From positions 1-55,703 of the IMG/VR virus record IMGVR_UViG_3300050014_000104: a stretch of 55,703 nucleotides of DNA. The stretch is one strand, 5' to 3'. The translations under genes were made by a program, and so were the position numbers. Under the pieces are notes generated by a model. The model was not told the origin of the DNA. It ran no database searches and saw only the letters and a list, made by a program, of their open reading frames with translations. Origin of the DNA: a virus (Duplodnaviria > Caudoviricetes). Positions 10,717 to 54,442 of the stretch are shown here, in pieces (within the stretch, counting starts at the first letter, position 1; every line of letters starts with the position of its first letter).

Positions 10717-10717
10717 T

Positions 10718-10927: not shown

Positions 10928-10976
10928 TCCGTTGGAATGTCTTTTGTGTTGATATGTATTAGTAGAAAGGTATTCT

Positions 10977-11582: not shown

Positions 11583-12885
11583 AAAAGAGTTTGATGCTTT
11601 ATTAGAAAAAAATGGATGGAAGGTTGATGCCGATGGAAACATCTATGAAGAAGAGGGAAGAGGCGTGGTTCCCACGATACTTGATATATGGTTTCGTGAG
11701 AGGGTAGAGTATCGCAAGCTTCAAAAGAAGTTCTCCGACGAAGGGGACAAGGTTCAGTCGGAGTTCTACAAACGCCGTCAGTTGAGGCAGAAGATTTTCT
11801 TGAACTCGGTGTATGGAACGTTGGGTCTTCCAATCTTCCGCTTCTATGACCGAGACAACGCCGAAGCCGTGACCATCTCGGGTCAAGAGATTATTCGCTC
11901 GGCTGAGAAGTTGGTTAATGACATGTATTTCACGAAGTTCAAGGAAGCTAACGTCAATCCTCCGACGCAGGACTTCGTAGTGTATATTGATACTGATTCG
12001 TTGTACATGTCGGCATTGCCTGTCGGCAAACTTGCTGGCGTGAATCCCGAAGGCATGACCAAGTTTACCATTGATTGGGTGACGCAAGTAGCGAGCAAAA
12101 TCAATCAGTTCTACGAGTACATGGTGCCTAAGATATTCAATGTGGCACCCAATTACAACCGTATTAGAATCGTTCCCGATGTAGTAGCCAAGAAGGCTCT
12201 CTGGGTGGTTAAGAAGCGTTACGCCATGCTCAAGGTGTTTGACATGGAGTCAATGAAGCCTGTTAAGACTAAGGATGGTAAAGAGGGCAAGCTTGAAGTC
12301 AAAGGCATTGACGTGGTTCGCTCTAGCTTCCCCACAGCATTCCGTAAGTTCGCTTCGGATGCGTTGGACTCTTTGCTCCGTGGTATTCCTCAGAAAGAAC
12401 TGGACGAGCGCATTATGGTGTTTGAGGAAGGTATAGAGAAATGTTCTGTATTCGACCTTGCTAAGACGAGTTCTGTCAGGTTCATCTCTCGCAACGGCGA
12501 AGATAATTACAATCCATCCACTCGCAAACTGTTCCAGTTTATTAACAAGTCCCCCGCTCAAGTGCGTGCGGCCTTGGCCTACAACGACCTCTTGAAGGTG
12601 TGGAAGCTGGACCGACAGTTCGAGAAGATTACCCACAGTGAGAAAATCAAGTGGTGCTATCTTCTTCCTAATGACTTCTATGTGGAAGCCTTGGCGATGA
12701 AGGGTGATGATACTGACCCCGATGAAATTCTCAATTTTATTGAGGCTCATATTGACCGTAACAAGATGTATGAGCGGGAATTGAAAAGCAAACTCGGAGA
12801 CATTTATGAGGCTATTGGTTGGAGATACCCCAATCGTGGTTCTCAATTAGCATCAGAAACATTCAACTTTGAGGAACAATGGTAA
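11524..12885 (+). CDS. family B DNA polymerase, C-terminal fragment
   Basis: Motif B KIFLNSVYG, motif C YIDTDS, KKRY and KGIDVVRSS. Confidence 0.95.
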   Translation: MDEEKKYKIEISGKQMELTKKEFDALLEKNGWKVDADGNIYEEEGRGVVPTILDIWFRERVEYRKLQKKFSDEGDKVQSEFYKRRQLRQKIFLNSVYGTLGLPIFRFYDRDNAEAVTISGQEIIRSAEKLVNDMYFTKFKEANVNPPTQDFVVYIDTDSLYMSALPVGKLAGVNPEGMTKFTIDWVTQVASKINQFYEYMVPKIFNVAPNYNRIRIVPDVVAKKALWVVKKRYAMLKVFDMESMKPVKTKDGKEGKLEVKGIDVVRSSFPTAFRKFASDALDSLLRGIPQKELDERIMVFEEGIEKCSVFDLAKTSSVRFISRNGEDNYNPSTRKLFQFINKSPAQVRAALAYNDLLKVWKLDRQFEKITHSEKIKWCYLLPNDFYVEALAMKGDDTDPDEILNFIEAHIDRNKMYERELKSKLGDIYEAIGWRYPNRGSQLASETFNFEEQW

Positions 12886-42376: not shown

Positions 42377-43225
42377 CTACAAATCCAAGTAACTACCGAT
42401 TTTCAGTTCTTTTCCATTCCAAACCCCATAGTGCATATTGCCATGAACGTCGAGGCAAATGTTGTGTGACAGGTCTGGGTTATCCAGAGAAGTCAAGTAC
42501 GGCTTGAATAAGTCGTACGGACGATAAACAACCTTCCCGTCCTCGTTGAGGGGGTCGTGGTCTAAGATGCACCACTTGACGCCCTGTGCTTGCGGGGTAT
42601 GCCCCACAATCTGATTGATGCCCCGGAGAGGGAAAAACTCCCGCTCGAAGTCGCACCATGTAATCCCACCAACTCGCTGCTGCCCCCAACGGGCACGTCC
42701 AGCGTTAAAGACCCAAGACCCTTTGCTGTTGGCTCCATCTTGGAAACCTTTACGAATCTCATGGTCAAGGTATCCCGTCAGTTCGGCAATGAACTTCGGG
42801 CGGTCCTTACGGAACTTCTTGATGTTGTCGGGCACGTTGAGTTTATGCAACCCACCGTGACTGAGCAGCCATCGGCCATCCAGAAAATGAAACCACTTCA
42901 ACTTGTCCCACAGCTTCGGGTCAATGCTGTCATGGACAATGAAATACTTCCACTGTGCATATCCACTGCACTGAAACGTGCGATAAGGATATGCATAATG
43001 TACATCGTGATTTCCGAACAAGTGAATGCGATTTGGTTTGGCAACCGAGCCAGAAAGCCAGCAGCATGTCTCCCGAAACATTTCGGGTGTATCTGAAAAA
43101 TCATCGAAGTAATCGCCCAAGAAGATTATCTCGTCCGCTCCCACCGAAGCAATTATCTTCTCAGCCCTTTCCCATTTGAGATGGATGTCGGGTATAATCA
43201 GTGTAATCTTGTTTGTATTGCTCAT
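42377..43225 (-). CDS. calcineurin-like metallophosphoesterase
   Basis: DIH, GDYFD, GNHD, SHGG and GHT motifs. Confidence 0.9.
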   Translation of the reverse strand: MSNTNKITLIIPDIHLKWERAEKIIASVGADEIIFLGDYFDDFSDTPEMFRETCCWLSGSVAKPNRIHLFGNHDVHYAYPYRTFQCSGYAQWKYFIVHDSIDPKLWDKLKWFHFLDGRWLLSHGGLHKLNVPDNIKKFRKDRPKFIAELTGYLDHEIRKGFQDGANSKGSWVFNAGRARWGQQRVGGITWCDFEREFFPLRGINQIVGHTPQAQGVKWCILDHDPLNEDGKVVYRPYDLFKPYLTSLDNPDLSHNICLDVHGNMHYGVWNGKELKIGSYLDL

Positions 43226-44006
43226 AGGTTTTCAATTTTCGTTCCAAATATACCACGGAATTGCCATAAAGTAAAGAGCAAAGTTTCATTGCTTTTTTGC
43301 CACTTGTTCTTGCTCGCCATATGTTATGGTCCTCAGAAAGTGTGAGGTTTAGGGACAATGATGATTTTACATAGTCAATGAACCCTTGTATCACCGATTT
43401 GCTTCCACACAATCCGACCTCCAAACTTTTGTATGGATATTGACTATTGACACATACATGCCCGTCTCCATCTACCACGCCACGCCAAAAATGTCGTTGA
43501 AGATGTTTTGGTATGGAGGGCGGAACTGCTGTCAAACTTTTCCTCTCGGTGATGTTATGCATTGATAAGTCCTCACACATTTTTTGACATCGTATTGCTA
43601 ATCTTGCTGTGGGGAAAGGTCCGCCAAATCCCCCTGATATGACTATTTGGTATTTGTTATTCCCTCTGATGGATTTTATAAACTTATCCAAATGTGGTTT
43701 ATCGGACTCTTTGAGTGCAATAATGATGTCTTTACCTCTGCTTATGCATCCATCTGCAAGAATGAACCCTAACCAGTACGCCTTTTCCTCGGTGTCTATT
43801 CGCTCAAAAAATCGCTCGTGGAATGTATAGCGTTTGCTGGTCTGTTGAGTGGTTCTGGTAGGCAATCCGTGGCGACGAACTATGTTGAGTACGGTAGCGA
43901 AATGTACTCCTGTTTGTTTGGATACTCCTATGGAGGATATGCCCTCCGTGTAGAGTTTGACAATTTGGTTTTCTACCTCTGCGGGGGTCTGATTGTATGT
44001 TCTCAT
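43161..44006 (-). CDS. LAGLIDADG homing endonuclease
   Basis: YWLGFILADG and FWRGVVDGDG...YLERK. Confidence 0.9.
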   Translation of the reverse strand: MRTYNQTPAEVENQIVKLYTEGISSIGVSKQTGVHFATVLNIVRRHGLPTRTTQQTSKRYTFHERFFERIDTEEKAYWLGFILADGCISRGKDIIIALKESDKPHLDKFIKSIRGNNKYQIVISGGFGGPFPTARLAIRCQKMCEDLSMHNITERKSLTAVPPSIPKHLQRHFWRGVVDGDGHVCVNSQYPYKSLEVGLCGSKSVIQGFIDYVKSSLSLNLTLSEDHNIWRARTSGKKAMKLCSLLYGNSVVYLERKLKTYEQYKQDYTDYTRHPSQMGKG

Positions 44007-44060
44007 TGATAATAAATATCAATGAGTCCCCGAAATCATCAACATATCTGCCTAAATAAA

Positions 44061-44993
44061 TTAGGATGATGCAAACTGATTTCTCCATTTTAGTTTTCCT
44101 CTTTCGGATTGTTTCTTTCGGTTCTCGTCTTTGGACCAGTACATTTGGCTCTGCATTTGAAACCAATCGTTGTTGGCTCTCCCCCGTGCAGAGTTGGTTT
44201 TTATCATATTGCAAATGTGGGAGTTTCCGAGTGATAATGCTTTTGAAGTAGAGTGATATGTTTGATTGCACAGGAAACAATGACATTCCCATATTCTTCC
44301 ATACCACTTTTTAGAACATTTACCAGTCCACCGAAGGACTTCCCGCTTCTCATTCTTGTCGCCTGTCCAATCATGGGTTCTGGTACATGTCATGGAGCAA
44401 GAAGTTGTACTTCCAGCAAGAATATACTCTAATTTCTTTATACATTTAGACCCGCAGATGAGGCAAGTGCAATTATAGAATGACTTCCTTCTTTTATTTG
44501 TATAGGCATACGAGTCAATGCGAAGGTTGTTAATGCTTCGACCTATCATTTTACGATGGCGAATGTCAGCATACATTTTTTTGCGACATCCACAACTTCT
44601 GGTATTACCAGATGTAAGACCTGTTCCACCACAGCGGAATATTTTGAACGTGCCATCGTCGTGGTCACAGCGGCATTCGTATTGATATTGATGATGTTTG
44701 TTTATTCCCATCTGTTTGATTACAGTAATGACATTGGTCGCATCTTCAAACCGATAAACCTTTCCAGTAATATCAACAATGTGGGAAGCACCTGTGGCTT
44801 TATGACTACATTTTAGGCATTGAGTGACGTGACCACTGGCAATGTTATGTCCATTACCAATGAATTTCTTCTTACACTTCTTACAGAGAACTAAAAACTT
44901 TCTACGTTCATATTTGTTTGATTTTATTTCTCGGAGTATTTCAATATGTTCAAAGGAGTGACCAATAAGATTGTTAATTCCAATACTTTTCAT
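44061..44993 (-). CDS. Cys-rich repeat protein related to HNH-endonuclease N-terminal modules
   Basis: About four C.C..C...L.SG...SC units; no clear catalytic HNH. Confidence 0.6.
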   Translation of the reverse strand: MKSIGINNLIGHSFEHIEILREIKSNKYERRKFLVLCKKCKKKFIGNGHNIASGHVTQCLKCSHKATGASHIVDITGKVYRFEDATNVITVIKQMGINKHHQYQYECRCDHDDGTFKIFRCGGTGLTSGNTRSCGCRKKMYADIRHRKMIGRSINNLRIDSYAYTNKRRKSFYNCTCLICGSKCIKKLEYILAGSTTSCSMTCTRTHDWTGDKNEKREVLRWTGKCSKKWYGRIWECHCFLCNQTYHSTSKALSLGNSHICNMIKTNSARGRANNDWFQMQSQMYWSKDENRKKQSERGKLKWRNQFASS

Positions 44994-44994
44994 A

Positions 44995-45915
44995 TCAATA
45001 ATCAAGCACCGACAGAGTGGGGTCAATGGAAGCCAATGGCATTGGATAGAATGTCTCTCCCGATTCATTTCCAACCACTAATTCCCGATGAATGCGAACC
45101 ACATGCACTTGGGTTACATTGTCAGAATATAGATTTACAAGTGCGAATGCGTGTTTCCAAGCATTCTTTGCTCCACCATTGCTATTATACTCGGCTTTGA
45201 GTTTGGTTAGGCACCCAATACAGTAAGCGGCACGGTCTTCCCAATAATTTCCATCGTATGTCTCCGCAAGGACTTTGTGCTGGTGTCCATAGATAACATT
45301 ATCAAAGTCCTTATACATCCGTTTGACTGAGGCATTGTTGAATCCATGCATCACAATCAATCCTCGTTCCTCTTTGGGTGCTTGAATAATATACATTGAA
45401 TCGGTCTCTCCACCCCAGTACGGAATGTATTGTATGTTCAACTCCTTCCACAATGACCATTTATGGAAGGCGAGATTTTGCGGGTTGTAGTCGGGGTCAT
45501 CAGCAAATTGCTCGAAGATGGGATTAGAGAAGAAGGTACGGGACCATTGGTCATGGTTTCCTTCAAGCTGGACTTTGATTGCCTCGGGGTATTTTTTAGC
45601 AAGGTAATTCCAAAACGCATACGCCATTTTCTTTTGGGCATACCACGATGCCTTGTACCATTTACCATCATTACTTTTGACATTTCCTTCTCGACCTATG
45701 GCTTTTGTCCAATGGGAGATGCAGTCCATTTCCATGAGGTCTCCGATATGGATGATGCCATCAAGTTTGATGTTCTTGGTGTATTGAAGCATCAAGGAGA
45801 TAGCTGCGGGGTGATGACAGAATTGAGGATTGAGATAACTTCCGTCATTACTGGGGGATTGAAAATGCGTATCAGGAATGATAAGCCACGTTTGGAGTTT
45901 TGTTACTTTTTTCAT
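44995..45915 (-). CDS. calcineurin-like metallophosphoesterase
   Basis: PDTH, GD..E.D, EGNHD, HG, GHQH and GCL motifs. Confidence 0.85.
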   Translation of the reverse strand: MKKVTKLQTWLIIPDTHFQSPSNDGSYLNPQFCHHPAAISLMLQYTKNIKLDGIIHIGDLMEMDCISHWTKAIGREGNVKSNDGKWYKASWYAQKKMAYAFWNYLAKKYPEAIKVQLEGNHDQWSRTFFSNPIFEQFADDPDYNPQNLAFHKWSLWKELNIQYIPYWGGETDSMYIIQAPKEERGLIVMHGFNNASVKRMYKDFDNVIYGHQHKVLAETYDGNYWEDRAAYCIGCLTKLKAEYNSNGGAKNAWKHAFALVNLYSDNVTQVHVVRIHRELVVGNESGETFYPMPLASIDPTLSVLDY

Positions 45916-45997: not shown

Positions 45998-46025
45998 ATT
46001 ATATCAAACCTACAACAGAAGTCAA
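45998..46025 (-). promoter_or_regulatory. sigma70-like promoter
   Basis: TTGACT-16-TATAAT with TGn extension; ATG 6 nt downstream at 45991. Confidence 0.75.
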
Positions 46026-46438
46026 TCCCCTTTTTCACCGAACTTATGAAAGTATCTCAACGGTCTCCACAAATGGTTATTAACCCAGAACCCCCATTTT
46101 CTGTATTGACGTGAGCATAGCAATAACGTCCAAGCACCTTCGGGCGGGATTTCAAGCCGATGCTGTTTGTCGCCTTTGGCATACCAAATGGATGGGGCTT
46201 TGATATGCCTACTGCCATTCGGGGTATGATTTGTATAACTACCCTTAAAGAGAAAGGATAGAAAGTCGCATCCGTGGTCATGAAAGTGGGGACCAACGTC
46301 AGAACTAATCCAGTGATGAATCCGAATTGAGTAACCAAAGAATAAGAATGTCCAACGGGTCAAGTAATGAGTTGACCCTTGATACATCTTTTCAGCCCAG
46401 CGAATCTGGAAGGGGCGAAATTTTCGGTATTCTTTCAT
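46022..46438 (-). CDS. cupin-like hypothetical protein
   Basis: YLTRW...IHH...D...HDH...G.Y...HR...WTL...R.WGF. Confidence 0.7.
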   Translation of the reverse strand: MKEYRKFRPFQIRWAEKMYQGSTHYLTRWTFLFFGYSIRIHHWISSDVGPHFHDHGCDFLSFLFKGSYTNHTPNGSRHIKAPSIWYAKGDKQHRLEIPPEGAWTLLLCSRQYRKWGFWVNNHLWRPLRYFHKFGEKGD

Positions 46439-46516
46439 ATTGTGTCGGTTATTGCTGACATTACCTATTGTCTGTTATTTCTGACGTTTCTCTCTACTGT
46501 CTGATATGTATGACAT

Positions 46517-47149
46517 ATGATTATTGAGAAAGAAATTGGAACTGGTACAGATTGTATCTATGTTTATTACAATCCGAATGACAAAAAACTTGCGTTGATG
46601 GAAAGCAAAGACCGATGGGAATGCAAGATAGGATTTTCTTCCACTGACCCAGTAAAGCGGATACAGAGTCAGGGGTATCAAACATCTATGGCAAGAGAGC
46701 CAGTCATTGGTCTGGTAATACGGACTACGAATGGTTACTATACTGAATCCTTCATTCATAAGCGTCTTTACAGTTATAGAGTCCCCTCAAAAGTAGGCGG
46801 TGACGAGTGGTTTCTCACGTCTCCCGCCGAAGTTGAATCAATTTTTGTTAATGACATTTTGCCAAATAAAAGTGGAGATACTTACTGCGAATATGAAATC
46901 TCAGATACCAATGACTTTGCTTCGGTGTTAAACTTGCATAGGAAAAAAGTAAATATGACAAATGAAAACCTTTGCAACAAAGTCAAGGTTAGTCGGGATA
47001 CGCTATGGAGACTTTTCCACGGACAGAAAACTGTGTGCCTTTCAACTGTATTCAAGGTGTTAAATGAATTGGATTTAGACATTACGTTAAAATCAAAACT
47101 TCCTGCTGACAAAATAAAGATTCATACATCGGCTCGTAAGGCACGTTAG
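46517..47149 (+). CDS. GIY-YIG (T5orf172-like) nuclease fused to an XRE HTH
   Basis: IYVY...KIGFS..DP..RI...E..IH...EWF; C-terminal HTH. Confidence 0.75.
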   Translation: MIIEKEIGTGTDCIYVYYNPNDKKLALMESKDRWECKIGFSSTDPVKRIQSQGYQTSMAREPVIGLVIRTTNGYYTESFIHKRLYSYRVPSKVGGDEWFLTSPAEVESIFVNDILPNKSGDTYCEYEISDTNDFASVLNLHRKKVNMTNENLCNKVKVSRDTLWRLFHGQKTVCLSTVFKVLNELDLDITLKSKLPADKIKIHTSARKAR

Positions 47150-47172
47150 CACTCATATATGAATCGTTAAAT

Positions 47173-47254
47173 TGGTCAGCGCAACGGGACTTGAACCACG
47201 TAAACCTCCACTATGTATTAGACAGTGGCGCTCTGCCAATTGAGCTATGCGCTG
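47173..47254 (-). tRNA. atypical tRNA-like gene (7-bp anticodon stem with AAU, or 11-nt loop containing CUA)
   Basis: CAGCGCA/TGCGCTG-A-CCA acceptor, GCTC/GAGC D arm, CCACTGT-CTAATAC-ATAGTGG, bulged T stem with TTCAAGT loop. Confidence 0.7.
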
Positions 47255-47256
47255 GT

Positions 47257-47362
47257 TGGTCAACGAGGTAGGAATCGAACCTACGGCCCCGTGCATGTGT
47301 AGCACCACAGAATTCACTGTGCGGATTATTAGTCCGGCGCTCTTCCACTGAGCTACTCGTTG
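47257..47362 (-). tRNA. atypical tRNA (anticodon AAU) with a 31-nt insertion
   Basis: CAACGAG/CTCGTTG-A-CCA; CCGGA-CTAATAA-TCCG[31 nt]G; GTAGG-TTCGATT-CCTAC. Confidence 0.75.
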
Positions 47363-47364
47363 AT

Positions 47365-47444
47365 TGGCGGGGCACCGAGGACTCGAACCTCGAACCTTCA
47401 TTGCATTGCTGCAATGCTGCTCTATCCCATTGAGCTAATGCCCC
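47365..47444 (-). tRNA. tRNA-like gene with a non-canonical anticodon arm
   Basis: GGGGCAT/GTGCCCC-G-CCA with canonical D and T arms; the arm GCATTGCAGCAATGCAATG gives no 7-nt U33 loop. Confidence 0.7.
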
Positions 47445-47457
47445 AAATTTCATATCG

Positions 47458-47730
47458 TTATGCCAGTATCAATTCCTCTGCGTGAGCGGCGAGATACTGC
47501 CGTTGGGCCTCTTGCTTGGCACCCCTTAACTCTTCAATCATCTCCGTGGCCCGTGCCCGCATCTTAAGCAAGTTGTACTGCATCCCACCAGCGTAGCCCT
47601 TGGCTCTCTGGGTCTCCTTGATGTCGGCCTTCGTCTCACGAATCTGCTGGCTGAGTGCTTTGTAAGTAGCCTTCCAGTTGGAACGATAAGCTAAATACGT
47701 TTCTTTGCTATTGAATGTGTATGTTGTCAT
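47458..47730 (-). CDS. helical phage hypothetical protein
   Basis: F.SKE.YL..R..WK..YK.LS..IR..K; A-rich leader. Confidence 0.7.
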   Translation of the reverse strand: MTTYTFNSKETYLAYRSNWKATYKALSQQIRETKADIKETQRAKGYAGGMQYNLLKMRARATEMIEELRGAKQEAQRQYLAAHAEELILA

Positions 47731-47794
47731 ATGTTTTCGTTTCTTTTTTGTTATTTTTTCGTTTCTTTTACCTTCCCGATGATATTTATTTCAT

Positions 47795-47944
47795 ATGGGA
47801 AGAAAATCATTAAATAGGACACCCGATGAACAACGAACAACCATCAACGAGCGTAGAATGCGATATTACTGGAAACACCGCAAACAGGAGCGAGCCAATG
47901 CTCTCAAGCGATATTATAGAAAAAAAGACGTGTGCCAAATGTAA
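47795..47944 (+). CDS. small basic MGRK-family peptide overlapping an endonuclease
   Basis: MGRKSLNRTPDEQRTTINERRMRYYWKH...; TATTTAT 5 nt upstream; paralog at 55214-55438. Confidence 0.65.
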   Translation: MGRKSLNRTPDEQRTTINERRMRYYWKHRKQERANALKRYYRKKDVCQM

Positions 47945-48464
47945 ATTGGATTTGCCGTTGGAAATGTTTAGCATACGCAATAGAAATAATAGTACGTTGA
48001 ATTGTTATTGTAAGTTATGCCAACCTGTGATTGCTCATAATTGGCGGATAAATAATTTGGGTAAAGTGAAGTGTCGGGAGAAATTATATCGCCGAGATAA
48101 TAAGGATAAAATCCAACGGCAGCAGAAAGAATATATGACACGGTGGATTGCCAGATTAAACTCTCGATTCGGCAGATGGAAAAAGAGTGCCCATCGGCGA
48201 GGAATTTCATTTGATTTAACTTTGGTGCAATTGGAAACAATGCCATTGTTATGTCATTATACTGGAAATGTATTGACGTTGGAAAGTAACAGACGGAATA
48301 CAGTTTCGTTGGATAGATTGGATTCTTCGCAGGGGTACACCATAACCAATGTAGTTTATTGCTGTTCGTTTGTAAATCTAATGAAGCATGAATTATCATA
48401 TAGTGATTTTGTTAATTCTTGTAAAGCAATTGTCGGTCATTATGAAAAATGTCATAAGAGTTGA
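47826..48464 (+). CDS. HNH-like homing endonuclease
   Basis: KTCAKC...YCKLC; CHYTG...SLDRLDSSQGY...NVVYCCSFVNLMK. Confidence 0.85.
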   Translation: MNNEQPSTSVECDITGNTANRSEPMLSSDIIEKKTCAKCKLDLPLEMFSIRNRNNSTLNCYCKLCQPVIAHNWRINNLGKVKCREKLYRRDNKDKIQRQQKEYMTRWIARLNSRFGRWKKSAHRRGISFDLTLVQLETMPLLCHYTGNVLTLESNRRNTVSLDRLDSSQGYTITNVVYCCSFVNLMKHELSYSDFVNSCKAIVGHYEKCHKS

Positions 48465-48844
48465 AAGTGTTTTGTTATATGTTTTATATCATTTTTCATA
48501 GCAGGGCCAAGGCCCAAAGCTGTAATGGTGGGTTCGCCACCGAAAAAGTTAGGACAACCTGAATCGGTCACTAAGTACGTGGAGATGCCCGCAGCCTCGG
48601 CTTCTTCTTTAGCACGAAGAAGGTGATGGAGGTTTTTGGCTTCGAGGCAAACTTTGGTGCCGGGGTGAGTGGGATACTCGGCGTGATACTCCTTTTGAAG
48701 GTCGGAGTTAGCATTAAGAAATGCACCGAGATAAGCATGGCCAGCTTGAGAGGCAATCTTGCCTGTGTCCATGCCAAGGTCCATACGCACGATGGAGTAC
48801 AAACGGAGAGTGGAGTCGGAAACCTATGTGAAAGTATTATTCAT
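48452..48844 (-). CDS. pth2: peptidyl-tRNA hydrolase type 2 with an in-frame TAG at codon 7
   Basis: VRMDLGM.TGKIASQAGHA...KVCL...V.DSG...T.T.LGLGP...ITKHFQLL; ATG 48844 is coupled to the upstream stop; TAG at 48824-48826. Confidence 0.85.
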
Positions 48845-49202
48845 TTGGGTGCTTCTCTTTCCAATGAAGTTTGTTGTGACAATTGGAACACATCACGTCA
48901 CACTTGTTTATCTCTTTAAGAAGACGGGGTATGCTCCATCCACGCAGAACGGCAAGCGAGACCTCTATGTCTTTTTGAGATGGGTCTCTATGATGGAATA
49001 GCAAACAAGAAATGTGAGATTCTCCGCAGGGGCAAACGAGTTTGGATTTATAATCCGACATCCACTGTTTAATCTGAATAAGGCGTTTTGCCTTATTCTG
49101 TAAGTTGATGGCAATGAGGCGAGTGCGATTTTTCAAGTAAAATCGGCGAGCACATTGTTTGGATTTTTTAAGACCTTCGGGAGTAGATTTATTGTACGGC
49201 AT
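48837..49202 (-). CDS. HNH endonuclease
   Basis: CPCGE....L.FHH.DP..K...E..KCDVMCSNCH..LH; TATTTAT 5 nt upstream. Confidence 0.85.
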   Translation of the reverse strand: MPYNKSTPEGLKKSKQCARRFYLKNRTRLIAINLQNKAKRLIQIKQWMSDYKSKLVCPCGESHISCLLFHHRDPSQKDIEVSLAVLRGWSIPRLLKEINKCDVMCSNCHNKLHWKEKHPNE

Positions 49203-49260
49203 ATACAATAAATAGGGAGGAAGGGACATAAACCACGAAGATAGTTTAATATCCCGAGAT

Positions 49261-49337
49261 TGGCGCTCCATATCGGATTCGAACCGATACAGACAATGGG
49301 TTAGAGCCATCCGCTCTGGCCGTTGAGCTAATGGAGC
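49261..49337 (-). tRNA. amber-suppressor tRNA (anticodon CUA)
   Basis: GCTCCAT/ATGGAGC-G-CCA; GCTC/GAGC; GATGG-CTCTAAC-CCATT; ATCGG-TTCGAAT-CCGAT. Clean 77-nt cloverleaf. Confidence 0.9.
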
Positions 49338-49349
49338 GTGGAATGAAAC

Positions 49350-49388
49350 CTATGTCGGACTGTTGCCATTCATAAATGTATTATTCAT
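49350..49388 (-). CDS. leader peptide MNNTFMNGNSPT ending in TAG
   Basis: Starts 10 nt after the -10 box, ends 12 nt before the suppressor tRNA, and matches the pth2 5' end. Confidence 0.65.
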   Translation of the reverse strand: MNNTFMNGNSPT

Positions 49389-49398
49389 TATGCCTATA

Positions 49399-49426
49399 AC
49401 TATAACACAGGTTAGGGAAATGTCAA
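49399..49426 (-). promoter_or_regulatory. sigma70-like promoter for the leader-tRNA(CUA)-pth2 unit
   Basis: TTGACA-16-TATAGT with TGn extension. Confidence 0.75.
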
Positions 49427-49449
49427 ATACTTTCGCAAAAAATCTTTGC

Positions 49450-49809
49450 CTACTTGGCAAAGGGGTTGATAATGAGGGACTTGGCCTTCTTTTCCCAGCC
49501 TGCGTTATTCATCTCTTCCTCGGAAATGAGGTTGATGTTCTCGTGCAGAGTCATAAGCATCACGGTGACGCCCTTCTCCCGCAGTTTGGCTGCGTATGGG
49601 GCGAGAAGTTTGGAGAAGACGGGTGCCACTGCCATCTTTTGAATTGGGTTCTCCACGTCAATGTTGATGACGAGAATCGAGTTGGGCTTGATGTCATCAA
49701 TGTTGATGGTTGTCACCCTATCGGCGGGCAATTGCAACTCGCTCGGGGGTTCGGCGGTTGTGATAAGTGCGGGGTTAAGGGGCGGTTGTTGTTCTTGGGG
49801 TTGGGTCAT
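49450..49809 (-). CDS. hypothetical protein
   Basis: ORF in the minus-strand run. Confidence 0.65.
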   Translation of the reverse strand: MTQPQEQQPPLNPALITTAEPPSELQLPADRVTTINIDDIKPNSILVINIDVENPIQKMAVAPVFSKLLAPYAAKLREKGVTVMLMTLHENINLISEEEMNNAGWEKKAKSLIINPFAK

Positions 49810-49987
49810 TGGATTTGTCTTTCAGTTCAGGACACGAGCCGCTGGTATGGTTTGTCCACAGACCACACAAGGCACACCATTTATTGTGCCAGTTAATGTC
49901 CCCGAAGTTATCATTCCACTTCTTGGGGTTGTACCCCAGTGTAGGTCTCATACCCTTACCGGGGTTACGGAATTCTTTCTTAGCCAT
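49775..49987 (-). CDS. small Cys/His-containing protein
   Basis: WCALCG...H....CP. Confidence 0.5.
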   Translation of the reverse strand: MAKKEFRNPGKGMRPTLGYNPKKWNDNFGDINWHNKWCALCGLWTNHTSGSCPELKDKSNDPTPRTTTAP

Positions 49988-50282
49988 AGGTGCGTCTCCA
50001 TCGGGCATCATACAGCTTGGCGAGTACATCTCGGTGCCACGACATGCGACGAACGAGAGACTTCATCTTTCGATGCATACCCCATGCGGCAAAGAAGCCA
50101 TGAACTTCTTCTTTGGCGAGGGCAGTAAGCTGGGCGCTCATGCGGAGATACTCGCCCTCAACTTCGAGGATACGAGCATCAATTCCGCTGCAACACCGCT
50201 TTTCCTCAGCGAGGATAGCTTTCATGTAATCATTACCCGCCAGAAACGGCAGGTTAGCTACGTTGAAATGTGGGGCATTCAT
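49980..50282 (-). CDS. hypothetical protein
   Basis: ATGA coupling to the kinase gene. Confidence 0.55.
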   Translation of the reverse strand: MNAPHFNVANLPFLAGNDYMKAILAEEKRCCSGIDARILEVEGEYLRMSAQLTALAKEEVHGFFAAWGMHRKMKSLVRRMSWHRDVLAKLYDARWRRTYG

Positions 50283-50755
50283 ATTTTGTGTACGAAAACC
50301 ACTTCATCGAACTCGGGAACTTCGGGACGCTGATAGCGAGCCAGCATATCATCAATGACCTTTTCGGGCACATTGCGGCCACCCTCAGACCCACGCTTGG
50401 CGTTACGGCCCACGAGGACAGACTTCTCACACTCAAAGACTTCGGCAATCACCTTGGCCCCTCGGCCTCGGGCGATGTTGATAAAGTCCTTGCGGGCTTT
50501 ACGATACATATTGGTCGCATCGAAGATTACGCATTTTCCTTCGCCCAAAGCCTTCTTCATTTGGTCCTTGGCGAGGCAGAAAGCGGGGTACGATACCGTT
50601 TGGTCGTGGGAACCCTTTCCAAGAATACGGCGGTTATCGTCGGGGCAAACCCGTACAATGCGAGGGTCGCCCTCAGTGAGGACTTTGCCAAATGTGGTCT
50701 TTCCGCTGCCCGGAGCACCCACCAGTATCCAAACCACTAGCTGTTCTGTTTTCAT
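50279..50755 (-). CDS. AAA_33 / polynucleotide-kinase-like P-loop protein
   Basis: LVGAPGSGKTT...D..R...VIFDATN...R...RN..R...VP. Confidence 0.9.
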   Translation of the reverse strand: MKTEQLVVWILVGAPGSGKTTFGKVLTEGDPRIVRVCPDDNRRILGKGSHDQTVSYPAFCLAKDQMKKALGEGKCVIFDATNMYRKARKDFINIARGRGAKVIAEVFECEKSVLVGRNAKRGSEGGRNVPEKVIDDMLARYQRPEVPEFDEVVFVHKI

Positions 50756-50762
50756 CGTGGTC

Positions 50763-50791
50763 AATATAACCCACTACTTCGATTCTGTCAA
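50763..50791 (-). promoter_or_regulatory. sigma70-like promoter, leaderless
   Basis: TTGACA-17-TATATT; ATG 7 nt downstream. Confidence 0.65.
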
Positions 50792-51181
50792 CATTTTTCG
50801 GGCGCTCTCCAAGATGGAGAAGATATTTTGTCTCCCAATCGGGTTCAGGGTATGGATGTAGTACAGGGGAACAGGCACCTTGCGTTCTACGCATAGGTGA
50901 GCCAGCCATCGGGCACAATCCATGCCCGTCTTCTCTCGGAGAAGTTCATAACGAATGGTGCCGAACGACTCTGAATTTTCATCGTGAGCCGCCGAGTACT
51001 CGGCATAATGCTCGTCTGCCAAGTCGTGGTCAAACGAGACTGTAGTGGGAATACCTTTCTCCGTTATGGTCTCGGTGAATTCAGCATATGATTTTACTAC
51101 CACCCAAGCATACGGAGGGAGGTCGAGCCACTTGACATCGCTCGGTTTACGGTTGTCATCTAGGAATAAGTGATATGACAT
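50774..51181 (-). CDS. cyclic-phosphate-processing receiver-domain protein
   Basis: LFLDD.R.P...SFDHDL...TGMDCA.WL...HT.NP.G..NI. Confidence 0.8.
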   Translation of the reverse strand: MSYHLFLDDNRKPSDVKWLDLPPYAWVVVKSYAEFTETITEKGIPTTVSFDHDLADEHYAEYSAAHDENSESFGTIRYELLREKTGMDCARWLAHLCVERKVPVPLYYIHTLNPIGRQNIFSILESARKMLTESK

Positions 51182-51182
51182 G

Positions 51183-51596
51183 TTATTTCTTTTTCTTCTT
51201 CTCTTCGTCAAACAAAGGATTGAAGATGTTGCCAACTATGAGCATTTCACGGTGATACCCAATATCAATATTCATCTTGCAGTCAGGCATCTTTAATTCA
51301 AACTTTCCATTTGAAAAGACAACGGTGTAACCATATTCTCGGTGCCCATCTTTATCAAACACTAAGACATCTCCCTCGTAGATTTCTTTTCCTGATTTAT
51401 CCGCCGTACCTGTATATTGATGAATAATATAGTCCTTCTGATTGGACTCGGCGTAAGCACCCATATTATCATTGTGCATTACTTTACCATCCACCGACAG
51501 GCAAACCCACGGATGATACTCATATCCTTCTTGGGCAATTCTCAGAAAAGAATTAGAACGTTTAGACCAAATACGAAATTTGAGTTCTCTATTCAT
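51183..51596 (-). CDS. YopX-family protein
   Basis: MNRELKFRIW...QYTG..DK.GKEIYEGDV...VGNIF. Confidence 0.85.
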   Translation of the reverse strand: MNRELKFRIWSKRSNSFLRIAQEGYEYHPWVCLSVDGKVMHNDNMGAYAESNQKDYIIHQYTGTADKSGKEIYEGDVLVFDKDGHREYGYTVVFSNGKFELKMPDCKMNIDIGYHREMLIVGNIFNPLFDEEKKKKK

Positions 51597-51597
51597 G

Positions 51598-52647
51598 TTA
51601 CTTTTTCTTACGCTCAATGTCGAACATAGGATTGAGGACTTTTCCTGACCAGACTTTCTTGAGTACTCCGCTCGTAAATCCTTCTTGCGGACGAACAACT
51701 ACGCCCTCGGCGGGGAAGCCATTTGGATACTTTTGCTCGCTGGCGAATTTCACCAACTCTTCAATGTTGAACCCAAACGCTGTACCCTCACCAATGGTAG
51801 TAACCATTGTGAGACAGTGGTCTTTGCAGAATTGAGTAAGCTTCTCGTAGTTCAAGTAGCCCCGAGTTTTGATGTCGAAGAGATTGAAAACGTGTAGTTC
51901 CAACTCCGTTAGGCCAAGATGATTGTCTTGGATGCCGGGACCGCAGACCTCGCCTTGAATGGCCATAGCTTGGTTAGGGAATGCTGCCTTAATGACGTTC
52001 GCAAGGTCATATTTGCGAGCCATACGCCAGAATCCATTACCCTCGCTTTCTTTCAGGTGAATGCGTCGGCTGCAAACACCAAACTCGTCTGCATTGACGA
52101 AGAAGGTGCCAGAGCAGCCATCATCTTTACGAGTGATGTAGTACGGGCGTCCCCACAATTCCTCAAGGGCAGTAGGATAAGTACGCAGATTGTCCTCGTC
52201 GGTCATGATAAGGAACCCGGGGAGCATACCGACAGCTTGACCAGCCAACTCGGCCGGGATAGGTTTTTCGTAATGGATAACGCTAAGTTTATCGGTGACA
52301 TCTTCACCTTCATTTACCAAGTAGAAATATGGACCATCTGGCAACAAATCAGTGCAAGGTTTTCGTGAAACTTTATCGCCGAGAATGCTCAGAGGAAAGC
52401 AGATTCCCGCACTTTCCTCTCCCCTCAACCGAATTGGTTTAATCCTAAAGTGTTTGTTTCGCAGAAATTCAAACTCAGGAGTTTCAGGAACTACCGAATC
52501 TATGCAGATATAAACACATAAATCCCCCGCCTTGAATTCTCCTTTTTTGACGACGACGTTCCACCCCAATACCTTTGCGATTTCAAGTGCGTCCGCATTA
52601 TTATGCGGAAGAATTTCTCGTATTTTTTGTACTGTTGCTTCTTTCAT
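51598..52647 (-). CDS. RNA ligase (DRB0094/Rnl5-like)
   Basis: N-terminal OB-like NADALE...GW.VVVKKGEF; motif I KDDGCS, QGEVCGPGIQ.N, F.LFD, EGVV.R. Confidence 0.9.
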   Translation of the reverse strand: MKEATVQKIREILPHNNADALEIAKVLGWNVVVKKGEFKAGDLCVYICIDSVVPETPEFEFLRNKHFRIKPIRLRGEESAGICFPLSILGDKVSRKPCTDLLPDGPYFYLVNEGEDVTDKLSVIHYEKPIPAELAGQAVGMLPGFLIMTDEDNLRTYPTALEELWGRPYYITRKDDGCSGTFFVNADEFGVCSRRIHLKESEGNGFWRMARKYDLANVIKAAFPNQAMAIQGEVCGPGIQDNHLGLTELELHVFNLFDIKTRGYLNYEKLTQFCKDHCLTMVTTIGEGTAFGFNIEELVKFASEQKYPNGFPAEGVVVRPQEGFTSGVLKKVWSGKVLNPMFDIERKKK

Positions 52648-53528: not shown

Positions 53529-53557
53529 TTGACCCTTTTCGCATGGTCTGTTATGCT
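53529..53557 (+). promoter_or_regulatory. sigma70-like promoter
   Basis: TTGACC-17-TATGCT with TGn extension; ATG at 53567. Confidence 0.65.
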
Positions 53558-53566
53558 GTGCGAACG

Positions 53567-54442
53567 ATGGGAGACATAGCGGATGACATAATCGGATGGA
53601 TGGAGGATGCCCTCGATGATTGCAACGGGTTGTATGATGACTTGTGGGCAGATGAATTTTATCCGAAGAGGGTGAAGAAAATACCTACATGTAGGTATTG
53701 TGGAAAGTCTCCGCTCCGCTGGCGGCAGATAAACGATAAATGGGTGCTCCACGAAATGGATGGCCATTACCATGATTGTCCTCAGCATCCATTGCCGCTC
53801 AACGTATTGAAGGACATATTGGCTCAACAGAAAAAGAAACATATGAGTGAATGGGACGATTTCAGAGACACGGTACAAGCACCTTTAGCATACGATGCAG
53901 CTAAGGGCAAGGCCGTGATACAACAACTACTACCAATTCCTTCGTGGGACGAACAGTTTATGCATGATGTCTATTGGTGGGCACGTCGGTCCAAAGACCC
54001 GAGGACAAAGATTGGTGCTTTGCTGGTGGATTGGGATAGCAAAGTTCCATTTGCTCACTCCTACAATAGTTTCGCCCGTAAGGTTGAAGACCTCGACCCC
54101 AAGCGATGGGAGAGACCTGAGAAGTATGAATGGGTAGTTCATGCCGAAGAGAATACTGTGCTTAACTGTGGTCGGCGAGGTTATTGTTCCAAGGGGGCAG
54201 TAATGTACACTCAAGGCGTGCCTTGTACCCGCTGTGCTGACGCTTGCGTGCAAGGCGGCATTGTAGAGGTTGTAGTCCATAAGCAATGGCAGGAATACGA
54301 GAAGAAGTTTGCTTGGGACAAATGGATTGATTCGGCAAAGCGCACCGAACAAAAGTTCAAAGAAGTCGGCATTAAGATAAGAGTTTTCGATGGCGTTCTT
54401 GGAATGCAAGGAGTCCTCGACGGTAAAGTAATCAGTATATGA
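53567..54442 (+). CDS. dCMP deaminase with an N-terminal Zn-ribbon extension
   Basis: RSKDP.TKIGA...HAEEN...PCTRC; N-terminal CRYCG...H.C. Confidence 0.88.
   Translation: MGDIADDIIGWMEDALDDCNGLYDDLWADEFYPKRVKKIPTCRYCGKSPLRWRQINDKWVLHEMDGHYHDCPQHPLPLNVLKDILAQQKKKHMSEWDDFRDTVQAPLAYDAAKGKAVIQQLLPIPSWDEQFMHDVYWWARRSKDPRTKIGALLVDWDSKVPFAHSYNSFARKVEDLDPKRWERPEKYEWVVHAEENTVLNCGRRGYCSKGAVMYTQGVPCTRCADACVQGGIVEVVVHKQWQEYEKKFAWDKWIDSAKRTEQKFKEVGIKIRVFDGVLGMQGVLDGKVISI

What the first reader, a model, noticed from the sequence alone, without database searches (positions are those of the whole stretch)
47257..47362. tRNA with a 31-nt double-hairpin insertion in the anticodon stem
Seen: removing 47291-47321 restores a perfect 75-nt cloverleaf (CCGGA/TCCGG stem, CU-AAU-AA loop). 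The insert folds into two clean hairpins, CACAG-TGAATT-CTGTG and GTGC-TACACAT-GCAC, so the RNA carries three anticodon-like arms at a multiway junction between positions 42 and 43. Established: protein-spliced tRNA introns are usually at 37/38, bacterial ones are self-splicing and much longer, and A34 AAU anticodons are very rare in bacteria. Inference: it could be a new small intron processed by the nearby kinase and ligase, or a multi-loop decoy for anticodon nucleases.
Basis: partly seen in the sequence, partly recalled or inferred. Interest (0 to 1): 0.8.

Follow-up and report, generated by a model that had tools for sequence, protein, structure and literature searches.

The report
Phage tRNA with conserved double-hairpin insert
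A large phage carries a transfer RNA gene whose anticodon stem is interrupted by two small, evolutionarily maintained hairpins, an arrangement not described for natural tRNAs, and whether the extra piece is kept or cut out is still open.

Summary
On the minus strand, 47257-47362 is a tRNA gene with encoded CCA. Rfam's tRNA model scores it 57.2 bits; default ARAGORN misses it. Removing 47291-47321 restores a canonical class I cloverleaf with anticodon AAU. The 31 nt fold into two hairpins and make a four-way junction between nucleotides 42 and 43.

It is not a decaying pseudogene. The one homolog found (L003 4989-5091) has the insert at the same place. Of 18 differences in 103 nt, 12 form six compensatory pairs, three of them in hairpin 1, and no pair is broken. 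Its anticodon is CCU.

The window is a fragment of a T4-like jumbo phage. The tRNA lies in a cluster in which every member has a remodelled anticodon arm, inside a conserved RNA-repair island: RNA ligase, kinase, cREC, phosphoesterases, PTH2 and an amber suppressor tRNA.

I found no bulge-helix-bulge motif, ribozyme, group I core or splicing endonuclease, and no RNA evidence. Best reading (about 0.5): a retained, phage-specific extra double arm. An intron sealed by the island's enzymes stays possible (about 0.2). The closest precedent is the 'enigmatic introns' of Lak megaphage tRNAs. I class it as a new variant of a known kind, on the evidence of two sequences.

The parts
47257..47362 (-). 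tRNA-B: the whole gene including encoded CCA (47257-47259); 103 nt + CCA
   Evidence: RF00005 57.2 bits; sequence
47322..47362 (-). 5' part: acceptor 5' strand, D arm, anticodon stem-loop up to G42
47328..47330 (-). anticodon AAU in loop CUAAUAA (47326-47332)
   Evidence: ARAGORN intron mode also names aat
47291..47321 (-). 31-nt insert between nucleotides 42 and 43
   Evidence: same site and length in L003 5030-5060
47306..47321 (-). hairpin 1: 5-bp stem, loop UGAAUU
   Evidence: 3 of 5 pairs changed on both sides in L003, loop unchanged
47291..47305 (-). hairpin 2: 4-bp stem, loop UACACAU
   Evidence: stem invariant in L003, one loop change
47260..47290 (-). 3' part: G43, variable loop GGGCC, T arm, acceptor 3' strand, discriminator A
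47365..47444 (-). tRNA-C, 3 nt upstream of tRNA-B: tRNA-like RNA with a 7-bp stem capped by the tetraloop GCAA in place of an anticodon loop
   Evidence: L003 4908-4983 differs at 4 columns of 77
47173..47254 (-). tRNA-A, downstream neighbour: 7-bp anticodon stem, loop CUAAUAC (anticodon AAU), bulged T stem
   Evidence: 7-bp stem kept in L003 5097-5175
47458..47730 (-). 90-aa ORF of no known family directly upstream of the tRNA cluster
   Evidence: no family; 81% identical in L003
46517..47149 (+). T5orf172-domain protein, convergent on the cluster; possible homing-type endonuclease
48452..48802 (-). peptidyl-tRNA hydrolase PTH2
49261..49337 (-). amber suppressor tRNA (anticodon CUA), canonical cloverleaf
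49399..49426 (-). promoter-like site TTGACA-16-TATAGT (11 of 12, TG) upstream of the suppressor tRNA
   Evidence: consensus match only
50279..50764 (-). polynucleotide kinase-like P-loop kinase
   Evidence: AAA_33 7.9e-25; phrog_505; Pnkp kinase region
50774..51235 (-). cREC_REC (cyclic-phosphate processing receiver) domain protein
51598..52647 (-). ATP-dependent RNA ligase, DRB0094 family
   Evidence: TIGR02306 159.3 bits, cut-off 151.15; Pfam RNA_ligase + PHA02142 OB fold
42377..43225 (-). calcineurin-like phosphoesterase (possible end-healing enzyme)
44995..45915 (-). second calcineurin-like phosphoesterase, weak match
   Evidence: 21.3 bits against cut-off 21.5

Best explanation
tRNA-B is a live phage tRNA gene under structural selection. 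Its anticodon stem is opened between nucleotides 42 and 43 by a 31-nt module of two hairpins with no linker bases. The top pair C27-G43, the anticodon stem, hairpin 1 and hairpin 2 therefore meet in a perfect four-way junction. I think the module stays in the RNA as a phage-specific double extra arm. It leaves the body two nucleotides from where class II tRNAs carry their long arm, and the class I core, the 7-nt anticodon loop and the CCA end stay intact. Its likely job is to act as a handle or a shield on the anticodon arm. It could be bound by a protein of the surrounding RNA-repair and translation island. Alternatively it could hinder host nucleases that cut tRNA anticodon arms or variable loops, while the RNA still works as a tRNA or as a tRNA mimic. 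Shown: the gene, the fold, its conservation with compensatory changes, the conserved gene context, and the fast turnover of the anticodon arm among relatives. Inferred: retention of the module, its partner, and whether the RNA decodes.
For: (1) The tRNA call and cloverleaf hold. Each tRNA of the cluster ends in CCA followed by 2-3 nt and then the next tRNA, which is the layout of a processed polycistronic tRNA transcript. (2) The homolog L003 4989-5091 has the same length and no gaps. Of 18 differences in 103 nt, 12 make 6 compensatory pairs (acceptor 1, anticodon stem 2, hairpin 1 3). There are 0 one-sided changes and 0 broken pairs among 30 pairs. Only 6 of 500 shuffles reach this, and slid controls give 0. 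(3) The hairpin 1 stem changed at 6 of 10 bases, while its loop UGAAUU changed at 0 of 6. Hairpin 2 changed at 1 of 15. Fourfold sites of the neighbouring gene differ at 7 of 27. The module therefore has sequence-specific parts, more than an intron that is only thrown away would need. (4) The neighbours show the same theme in forms that splicing cannot explain. tRNA-A has two extra base pairs in the anticodon stem in both phages, including G.U pairs, with 4 compensatory pairs. tRNA-C has a GCAA-capped stem in both. L003 also has a 6-bp-stem tRNA. (5) There is no bulge-helix-bulge motif (direct reading), no Rfam intron or ribozyme family, and no splicing endonuclease among 40 ORFs scanned. (6) The same island (ligase, cREC_REC, kinase, suppressor tRNA, PTH2, 90-aa ORF, tRNA cluster, phosphoesterase) occurs in both phages. 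(7) Engineered tRNAs with hairpin aptamers on the variable arm can stay active in translation (PMC7590224, passages). (8) ATT is the commonest Ile codon in 32 long ORFs that I picked from the 74: 321 ATT, 195 ATC, 144 ATA. An AAU anticodon would read it by Watson-Crick pairing.
Against: There are no RNA data. The four runs laid were contigs, and none crosses the insert in an RNA library. The family has only two members, so hairpin 2 has no covariation at all, and one shared ancestor could explain much of the likeness. With about 26% neutral divergence, 12 of 13 conserved inserted-loop bases is not significant by itself (my estimate is about 0.1). Exact restoration of a textbook cloverleaf on removal is what an intron predicts. 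Close relatives seem to lack the insert. A DNA contig of run X3 aligns across tRNA-B with 28 bases missing; the 23 listed all lie in 47293-47333. A contig of run X4 replaces 168 nt here by 139 other letters. A cross-bar of two hairpins is larger than any natural extra arm and may not fit the ribosome. Neighbours with 7-bp stems or a tetraloop argue that at least part of the cluster does not decode. No binding partner was identified.
Confidence: 0.5

Rival explanations
1. The insert is a small intron of a new kind. An unidentified endonuclease cuts both crossover points of the four-way junction. The kinase and phosphoesterase heal the ends. The DRB0094-type ligase seals the resulting nick in the anticodon stem, giving a 75-nt tRNA-Ile(AAU).
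For: Removal of one block restores a perfect class I cloverleaf in both phages. A kinase, cREC_REC, two phosphoesterases and an RNA ligase lie within 5 kb in both phages. Relatives seem to lack the insert. In a sample of 68 long viral tRNAs, 23 allow a one-block excision that restores a cloverleaf, at varied positions including stems, and Lak megaphage tRNAs are reported to hold unexplained introns (PMC6784885, passages). From recall, not from a call: DRB0094-type and Rnl2-type ligases prefer nicks in duplex RNA, which is what excision from a stem would leave.
Against: There is no endonuclease candidate, no bulge-helix-bulge motif, and no ribozyme or group I match (and direct reading). Only one of the four tRNA-like genes in the window has such a block. 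The neighbours' odd arms cannot be mended by excision. The ligase family is widespread (1754 homologs at E up to 1e-20), and none of the 7 further ligase-bearing viral records searched has a tRNA hit longer than 89 nt. There are no spliced reads.
Confidence: 0.2
2. The double arm is an identity element. It recruits an aminoacyl-tRNA synthetase or another charging factor independently of the anticodon, as the long arm does for SerRS. The anticodon can then be swapped freely (AAU, CCU), and the phage re-reads chosen codons.
For: The anticodon differs at two of three bases between homologs whose bodies are nearly identical. In run X3 the neighbouring tRNA-A differs only at anticodon positions 34 and 36 within the part covered (47219 T>G, 47217 A>T). 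SerRS uses the long arm and not the anticodon, and allo-tRNAs with long arms carry many anticodons (PMC7609411 passages; PMC5389517 abstract only).
Against: The arm is not where class II arms sit, and the acceptor/T branch is the canonical 7/5. The discriminator is A, not the G73 that the review names for serylation. The 4-69 pair changes together with the anticodon (C-G with AAU, A-U with CCU), which fits ordinary identity switching instead. There is no charging data.
Confidence: 0.1
3. The hairpins work at the DNA level, or as a transcription signal, for example a protein-binding palindrome, a homing-endonuclease site or an attenuator, inside a tRNA gene that tolerates them.
For: Homing-type endonuclease genes are dense here, including a T5orf172 gene 24 nt from the cluster. 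Compensatory changes without G.U pairs in tRNA-B would also keep a DNA hairpin.
Against: For a duplex palindrome bound by a dimer, the stems should be conserved and the centre free; here it is the reverse. No T run follows the hairpins, and the terminator scan lists nothing there. The motif is not repeated in the window. The neighbouring tRNA-A stem uses G.U pairs, which points to selection at the RNA level in this cluster.
Confidence: 0.05
4. It is a decaying pseudogene or a neutral insertion.
For: The anticodon AAU is unusual, default ARAGORN does not call the gene, and the family is tiny.
Against: Two phages differ at 26% of fourfold sites in the neighbouring gene (7 of 27). Between them, all 12 stem substitutions are paired and none breaks a helix. 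The D and T arms and the tertiary bases are intact.
Confidence: 0.03

Closest known systems
'Enigmatic introns' of Lak megaphage tRNAs (Devoto et al. 2019, PMC6784885; passages read; supplements not seen)
   Same: Both are phage tRNA genes longer than expected, with an extra block that bacterial tRNA finders do not model. In both, the block is conserved where present and absent in some relatives, and no splicing mechanism is known.
   Different: The Lak blocks were predicted with eukaryote settings as anticodon-loop introns, and one may itself encode a tRNA. Here the block is in the 3' strand of the anticodon stem, is 31 nt, forms two hairpins with covariation, and lies in a T4-like phage with an RNA-repair island. 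Their sequences are in supplements that I could not open, so I could not compare them.
Class II tRNAs (Leu, Ser, Tyr, Sec) and allo-tRNAs with long variable arms (PMC7609411 passages; PMC5389517 abstract)
   Same: Both have an extra helical arm leaving the body near the junction of the anticodon stem and variable region, compatible with an L-shaped tRNA.
   Different: A class II arm is a single hairpin inside the variable region. Here two hairpins precede G43, and a complete 5-nt class I variable loop follows them. The acceptor/T branch is 7/5, not 8/4 or 9/3.
Archaeal tRNA introns at non-canonical positions, cut at bulge-helix-bulge motifs (PMC4090602, abstract only)
   Same: Both are short blocks that can sit in stems and whose removal restores the cloverleaf.
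   Different: There is no bulge-helix-bulge motif at either border in either phage (direct reading). The context is a bacterial-type phage with encoded CCA. No splicing endonuclease was found.
Phage tRNAs that counter tRNA-cutting defences (PARIS, retron effectors, Septu, OLD: PMC11464382, PMC11555353, PMC13096335, PMC12445682; listings and abstracts only) and T4 Pnkp/Rnl1 tRNA repair (recalled)
   Same: Both involve phage tRNA genes next to or working with RNA repair, with changes centred on the anticodon arm or variable loop, the parts those nucleases cut.
   Different: The known cases are point changes in otherwise canonical tRNAs. None has inserted hairpins, 7-bp anticodon stems or a tetraloop. 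No defence system or cleavage was tested here.
Engineered aptamer-tagged tRNAs (PMC7590224, passages)
   Same: Both carry hairpins grafted near the variable arm as protein handles, with translation sometimes retained.
   Different: Those are man-made on allo-tRNA chassis with one hairpin on the arm tip. This one is natural, has two hairpins, and sits in the anticodon stem.
YrlA / Y RNA-like tRNA mimics (Rfam RF02553)
   Same: Both are tRNA-like modules encoded beside RNA repair genes.
   Different: The only match is weak and below threshold (27 bits against 69), and it runs across the border of two adjacent tRNAs. I reject it as an artefact. The same happens in L080.

Membership tests
tRNA (Rfam RF00005) | Score at or above the family's gathering score | tested here: met
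   57.2 bits against 29, model positions 1-71 of 71; the L003 homolog scores 48.7 bits
tRNA (Rfam RF00005) | Four cloverleaf helices, kept across relatives | tested here: met
   21 cloverleaf pairs are paired in both sequences, 3 with compensatory change
tRNA (Rfam RF00005) | Conserved tertiary bases, 7-nt anticodon loop with U33 and purine 37, CCA end | tested here: met
   Direct reading: U8, A14, G15/C48, G18 G19, U54 U55 C56, A58; loop CUAAUAA; CCA at 47257-47259
tRNA (Rfam RF00005) | Expression, aminoacylation, decoding | not testable with these tools
   No RNA contig covers the insert
Class II (long variable arm) tRNA | One extra hairpin inside the variable region, between positions 44/45 and 48 | tested here: not met
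   Two hairpins lie before G43, and an intact 5-nt variable loop (GGGCC, or GGGUC in L003) follows. cmscan places the block in the variable region only at the cost of a C.C mismatch at 27-43.
Protein-spliced tRNA intron (archaeal/eukaryal type) | Bulge-helix-bulge motif at the two cut sites | tested here: not met
   I compared the four 4-nt words ending 0-3 nt before each border. None is complementary in the window or in L003 (direct reading).
Protein-spliced tRNA intron (archaeal/eukaryal type) | Splicing endonuclease available | tested here: inconclusive
   None appears among 40 window ORFs scanned in Pfam, but the contig is about 16% of the genome and the host is unknown
Protein-spliced tRNA intron (archaeal/eukaryal type) | Spliced product exists | not testable with these tools
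   Only contigs were available; none is informative
Group I intron in a bacterial or phage tRNA | Catalytic core of about 200 nt or more in the anticodon loop | tested here: not met
   The block is 31 nt in the stem, and RF00028 does not match at E up to 1. The same search does find a group I intron in L033.
Small self-cleaving ribozymes (hammerhead, twister, pistol, hatchet, HDV-like) | Match to a family model | tested here: not met
   No such family matches at E up to 1 in 46900-49600
tRNA pseudogene | Substitutions that ignore base pairing | tested here: not met
   0 of 30 pairs broken, 6 compensatory
Anticodon-nuclease decoy or nuclease-resistant phage tRNA | Cleavage or protection by a defence nuclease | not testable with these tools
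   Only context is available: the RNA-repair island

The most novel reading that the evidence does not exclude
This would be a protein-dependent tRNA splicing pathway in a bacterial virus. The two-hairpin block is a stem-located intron. Its four-way junction is resolved by an unknown phage or host endonuclease, and the nicked anticodon stem is then healed and sealed by the adjacent kinase, phosphoesterase and DRB0094-type RNA ligase. It would be a bacterial-world counterpart of heal-and-seal tRNA splicing. The varied one-block inserts seen in other large-phage tRNAs would then be members of the same hidden intron world.
Probability: 0.18. Interest if true: 0.9.

Novelty: new variant of a known kind. 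Interest (0 to 1): 0.68.

Why it matters
The review I read (PMC7609411) states that the anticodon stem is consistently 5 bp. Its exceptions are 6-bp stems and small breaks in some pyrrolysine tRNAs; it describes no natural tRNA with hairpins set into that stem.

Here such an arrangement is kept by compensatory evolution, in a phage that groups several tRNA-like genes with rebuilt anticodon arms next to a full RNA end-healing and sealing kit, a peptidyl-tRNA hydrolase and an amber suppressor.

If the block is retained, it shows how much extra RNA a tRNA body can carry. It would also point to a new layer of the phage-host conflict over tRNA cleavage, and it offers a natural design for tagged tRNAs. 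If it is cut out, it is a new splicing route in bacteria.

Either outcome can be tested with one cloned 320-bp cluster. My pattern scan also suggests that long, insert-bearing tRNAs are common and unclassified in viral metagenomes: 68 candidates from a single D-arm motif.

Tried and rejected
More homologs. Exact-pattern scans of viral contigs for the anticodon arm plus T loop gave 0. The hairpin 2 motif gave only the L003 contig. One pattern was mis-designed and did not match my own sequence, so that scan was wasted. Two metagenome-contig scans (hairpin-loop pattern, tRNA-C pattern) gave 0 and 0. The same two patterns in genome contigs gave 0 and 0. The 90-aa neighbour as query found only the L003 contig. 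The phage collection by blastn found nothing.

A ligase alignment found 10 viral loci. In the 7 new records, 3 have tRNA hits, and none is longer than 89 nt. A covariance model of the two sequences, run over 131 sources (1.32 Mb), scored only its own two sequences above 65 bits.

RNA evidence. In the one RNA run laid (X23), contigs cover tRNA-C and the upstream ORF of a relative but not tRNA-B. This is no evidence either way.

Repeated element. The two hairpin sequences occur once each in the window; one 3-mismatch hit is at chance level.

TadA-like editing of A34. The nearby deaminase (53543-54442) matches dCMP/dCTP deaminase models, not a tRNA deaminase.

Rejected hits and models. The YrlA hit is an artefact. 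The ARAGORN intron model has a G.G mismatch.

Amber read-through fusion of cREC and kinase. The two ORFs are in frame across a TAG, but in L003 a Dam gene separates them, so I do not press it.

Literature. Six searches found no description of a natural tRNA with hairpins in the anticodon stem or of phage tRNA(AAU). The library lacks most subscription journals.

Full report
WHAT THE WINDOW IS. The window is a whole IMG/VR virus record of 55,703 bases, judged about 16% complete. Its genes point to a large T4-like phage. They include a split family B DNA polymerase, a clamp-loader ATPase, glycosyltransferases, a SNF2-type helicase, and many GIY-YIG, HNH and LAGLIDADG endonuclease genes. No record of the phage collection resembles 46000-50000 at the DNA level.

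THE OBSERVATION. ARAGORN finds three tRNA genes on the minus strand and skips the one in question. Rfam's tRNA model finds four, among them 47260-47362(-) at 57.2 bits (gathering score 29).

Read on the minus strand, the RNA is a complete class I tRNA. It has acceptor CAACGAG/CUCGUUG, D arm GCUC-AGUGGAA-GAGC, anticodon stem CCGGA, loop CUAAUAA, UCCG, then 31 extra bases, then G, variable loop GGGCC, T arm GUAGG-UUCGAUU-CCUAC, discriminator A and an encoded CCA.

The 31 bases (47291-47321) are two hairpins placed end to end with no spare base: CACAG-UGAAUU-CUGUG and GUGC-UACACAU-GCAC. The pair C27-G43, the anticodon stem and the two hairpins therefore form a perfect four-way junction.

My scan for a single block whose removal restores a 5-bp stem, a 7-nt loop with U33 and a purine at 37, and a 4- or 5-nt variable loop gives 42/43 for a 31-nt block. 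It also gives an equivalent 32-nt solution that leaves a 4-nt variable loop.

The fold energy of the whole RNA is moderately better than shuffles (z -2.16, 3 of 200). The insert alone is not unusual (z -1.52, 19 of 200), although 90% of its ensemble is the two-hairpin fold. The window alone would not prove anything.

THE HOMOLOG. A search with the nearby RNA ligase found three viral loci. One of them, L003 (ligase 78% identical over the part present), carries four Rfam tRNA hits, including a 103-nt one at 4989-5091.

The two 103-nt sequences align without a gap and differ at 18 places. Twelve of these are six compensatory pairs: one in the acceptor stem, two in the anticodon stem and three of the five pairs of hairpin 1. 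No pair of 30 is broken or changed on one side only. Only 6 of 500 shuffles reach these values, and sliding the partners by 1-3 columns gives no compensatory pair. The other six differences are in loops: three in the anticodon loop, one in the hairpin 2 loop, one in the variable loop and one in the T loop.

The L003 insert folds into the same two hairpins, with z -3.42 (1 of 200).

As a yardstick, the neighbouring 90-aa gene is 81% identical in protein and differs at 7 of 27 fourfold sites. The stem of hairpin 1 changed at 6 of 10 bases, while its loop changed at 0 of 6. Hairpin 2 changed at 1 of 15, so it shows conservation but no covariation.

The caveat is that the evidence is one pair of sequences.

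THE ANTICODON MOVES. The L003 copy has the loop UUCCUAA, so its anticodon is CCU, not AAU. The 4-69 acceptor pair changes with it: C-G with AAU, A-U with CCU. From recall, C4-G69 is among the reported E. coli isoleucine identity elements and A20 among the arginine ones; no call tested this.

Thirteen of the 18 differences fall in one 28-nt stretch, the anticodon arm plus hairpin 1. That is denser than the fourfold sites.

Contigs of public runs add to this picture (contigs only). A 283-nt DNA contig of run X3 aligns over 47185-47455 with 14 substitutions and 28 missing bases. The 23 missing bases that the table lists all lie between 47293 and 47333, so that relative's tRNA-B lacks most or all of the block. 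In the same contig tRNA-A differs at 47219 (T>G) and 47217 (A>T), which are anticodon positions 34 and 36.

A 1643-nt DNA contig of run X4 matches both flanks (12 differences in 377 nt and 30 in 390 nt). It replaces 168 nt covering tRNA-A and most of tRNA-B with 139 other letters.

The anticodon-arm region therefore behaves as a fast-changing cassette in a conserved frame. A T5orf172-domain gene sits 24 nt from the cluster. T4's SegB, a homing endonuclease inside the T4 tRNA cluster, is a known precedent for such exchange (PMC2330249, abstract only).

THE NEIGHBOURS. All members of the cluster have odd anticodon arms.

- tRNA-C (47365-47444) has a 7-bp stem capped by GCAA where the anticodon loop should be. 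The L003 copy differs at 4 of 77 columns, and one of these leaves a T-stem mismatch.
- tRNA-A (47173-47254) has a 7-bp anticodon stem, the loop CUAAUAC (AAU again) and a bulged T stem. Its L003 counterpart (5097-5175, below Rfam's threshold) keeps the 7-bp stem with an 8-nt loop. It shows four compensatory pairs and G.U pairs.
- L003 has one more tRNA with a 6-bp stem.

Each tRNA ends in CCA and is followed after 2-3 nt by the next one. This is the layout of a transcript cut by the usual tRNA processing enzymes.

Extra base pairs and a tetraloop cannot be cured by cutting something out. The common theme is rebuilt anticodon arms, not introns.

THE ISLAND. On the same strand lie the following genes:

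- an RNA ligase of the DRB0094 family (51598-52647; TIGR02306, 159.3 bits, over its cut-off);
- a YopX protein and a cREC_REC cyclic-phosphate-processing domain protein;
- a polynucleotide-kinase-like P-loop kinase (50279-50764);
- an amber suppressor tRNA (49261-49337) behind a strong promoter-like site;
- peptidyl-tRNA hydrolase PTH2;
- the tRNA cluster;
- further on, two calcineurin-like phosphoesterases.

L003 has ligase, cREC_REC, kinase, suppressor tRNA, PTH2, the 90-aa ORF, the cluster and a phosphoesterase in the same order. This is a complete kit for healing and sealing broken RNA, set beside the tRNAs.

INTRON OR NOT. Three things favour an intron: the exact restoration of a cloverleaf, the apparent absence of the block in relatives, and the repair kit.

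Against it, I looked for a bulge-helix-bulge motif by comparing the four 4-nt words just upstream of each border and found no complementarity in either phage. No intron or ribozyme family of Rfam matches at E up to 1. None of the 40 ORFs scanned is a splicing endonuclease or RtcB, though 84% of the genome is unseen. Only one of the four tRNA-like genes in the window has a block. The ligase family is common (1754 homologs at E up to 1e-20), and none of the 7 further ligase-bearing viral records has a tRNA hit longer than 89 nt.

The pattern of conserved loops on a freely covarying stem also suggests an RNA part that does something. With so little divergence this is only a hint.

The block leaves the body two nucleotides from where class II arms emerge, and all class I tertiary partners are intact. 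An L-shaped tRNA with a cross-bar is therefore sterically conceivable. Engineered tRNAs with hairpins on the variable arm can still translate (PMC7590224).

I therefore put retention as a phage-specific double arm, acting as handle or shield, at about 0.5. A new kind of intron is at about 0.2, an anticodon-independent identity arm at about 0.1, a DNA-level signal at about 0.05 and a pseudogene at about 0.03. Whether the RNA decodes is open. ATT is the commonest Ile codon in 32 long ORFs (321 against 195 ATC and 144 ATA), which an AAU anticodon would read by Watson-Crick pairing. The non-decoding neighbour tRNA-C warns that the cluster may consist of mimics.

HOW UNUSUAL. A scan of viral contigs for one common D-arm word followed 40-70 nt later by a T loop gave 105 stretches, of which 80 were listed. 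From the stored loci and the window, 68 distinct sequences have at least 6 of 7 acceptor pairs and 4 of 5 T-stem pairs, with lengths of 86-116 nt. In 23 of the 68, one block can be removed to give a canonical arm, at positions from 28/29 to 43/44. Chance would give about three by my estimate.

Long, insert-bearing tRNAs are thus frequent in viral metagenomes, and Rfam reports them only as long tRNA hits.

The covariance model built from the two sequences scores them at 128 bits and nothing else above 65 bits in 131 sources. The next best hits are 88-89-nt tRNAs with anticodon UAU. The model aligns their single extra hairpin to hairpin 2, before an intact AGGUC variable loop. A 95-nt RNA in L011 has three small hairpins and no proper anticodon loop. 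These are similar designs, not shown to be relatives.

In print, I found only the Lak megaphage report of unexplained tRNA introns (PMC6784885). A review states that the anticodon stem is consistently 5 bp, with 6-bp exceptions and small breaks in some pyrrolysine tRNAs (PMC7609411). Six literature searches found nothing closer. The library lacks most subscription journals, and supplements were closed.

VERDICT. I class it as a new variant of a known kind (non-canonical, insert-bearing phage tRNAs). The interest is high for tRNA and phage-defence specialists, limited by a two-sequence family and no RNA data.

Noticed in passing
window 47365-47444 (-); L003 4908-4983: This tRNA-like gene has a 7-bp stem capped by the GNRA-type tetraloop GCAA in place of the anticodon loop, so it cannot decode. 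It is the best conserved member of the cluster (4 differing columns of 77). DNA contigs of relatives cover it, and so does one contig from an RNA library.
   Followed up: partly
window 47173-47254 (-); L003 5097-5175: This tRNA has a 7-bp anticodon stem kept in both phages, with anticodon AAU in the window and an 8-nt loop in L003. In a contig of run X3 only anticodon positions 34 and 36 differ (47219 T>G, 47217 A>T) within the part of this tRNA that the contig covers.
   Followed up: partly
window 49261-49337 (-), promoter-like 49399-49426 (-): A canonical amber suppressor tRNA (CUA) sits behind an 11-of-12 sigma-70-like site. TAG ends only 2 of the 32 long ORFs I examined. Reading TAG as Q lengthens few ORFs in this fragment.
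   Followed up: partly
window 50279-51268 (-): The cREC_REC ORF ends in TAG in frame with the kinase ORF, so amber suppression would fuse them. In L003 a Dam methylase gene lies between the two, so this may be chance.
   Followed up: partly
window 9334-12885 (+): The family B DNA polymerase is in two ORFs (9334-10716 and 11524-12885) with a 201-aa ORF between them. This looks like a split or invaded gene.
   Followed up: no
window 42377-45915 (-): Two calcineurin-like phosphoesterase ORFs are separated by a LAGLIDADG-like ORF and an HNH-like ORF. This may be one gene family invaded by homing endonucleases.
   Followed up: no
L041 7683-7798, L051 1885-1995, L066 2337-2447, L073 6320-6431, L080 649-759 and 769-885, L110, L113, L117: These tRNAs of large phage contigs (up to 415 kb) are 111-117 nt long. 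They carry 39-44-nt blocks in the anticodon arm that share sequence words (such as GUUCCUA) although they sit in different tRNAs. This looks like a recurring insert family with no Rfam model.
   Followed up: partly
L033 4675-4763, L035 3355-3442, L067, L097, L087, L100: These are 88-89-nt tRNAs with anticodon UAU and one extra hairpin (loop CAGAUAA) placed before an intact AGGUC variable loop. This is the same junction as in the finding.
   Followed up: partly
L033 4959-5150: A group I intron (RF00028, 68 bits) lies among the tRNA genes of this viral contig.
   Followed up: no
L011 1415-1509 (-): This 95-nt tRNA-like gene has an intact acceptor, D and T arms. Between them are three small hairpins, and there is no 7-nt anticodon loop.
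   Followed up: partly
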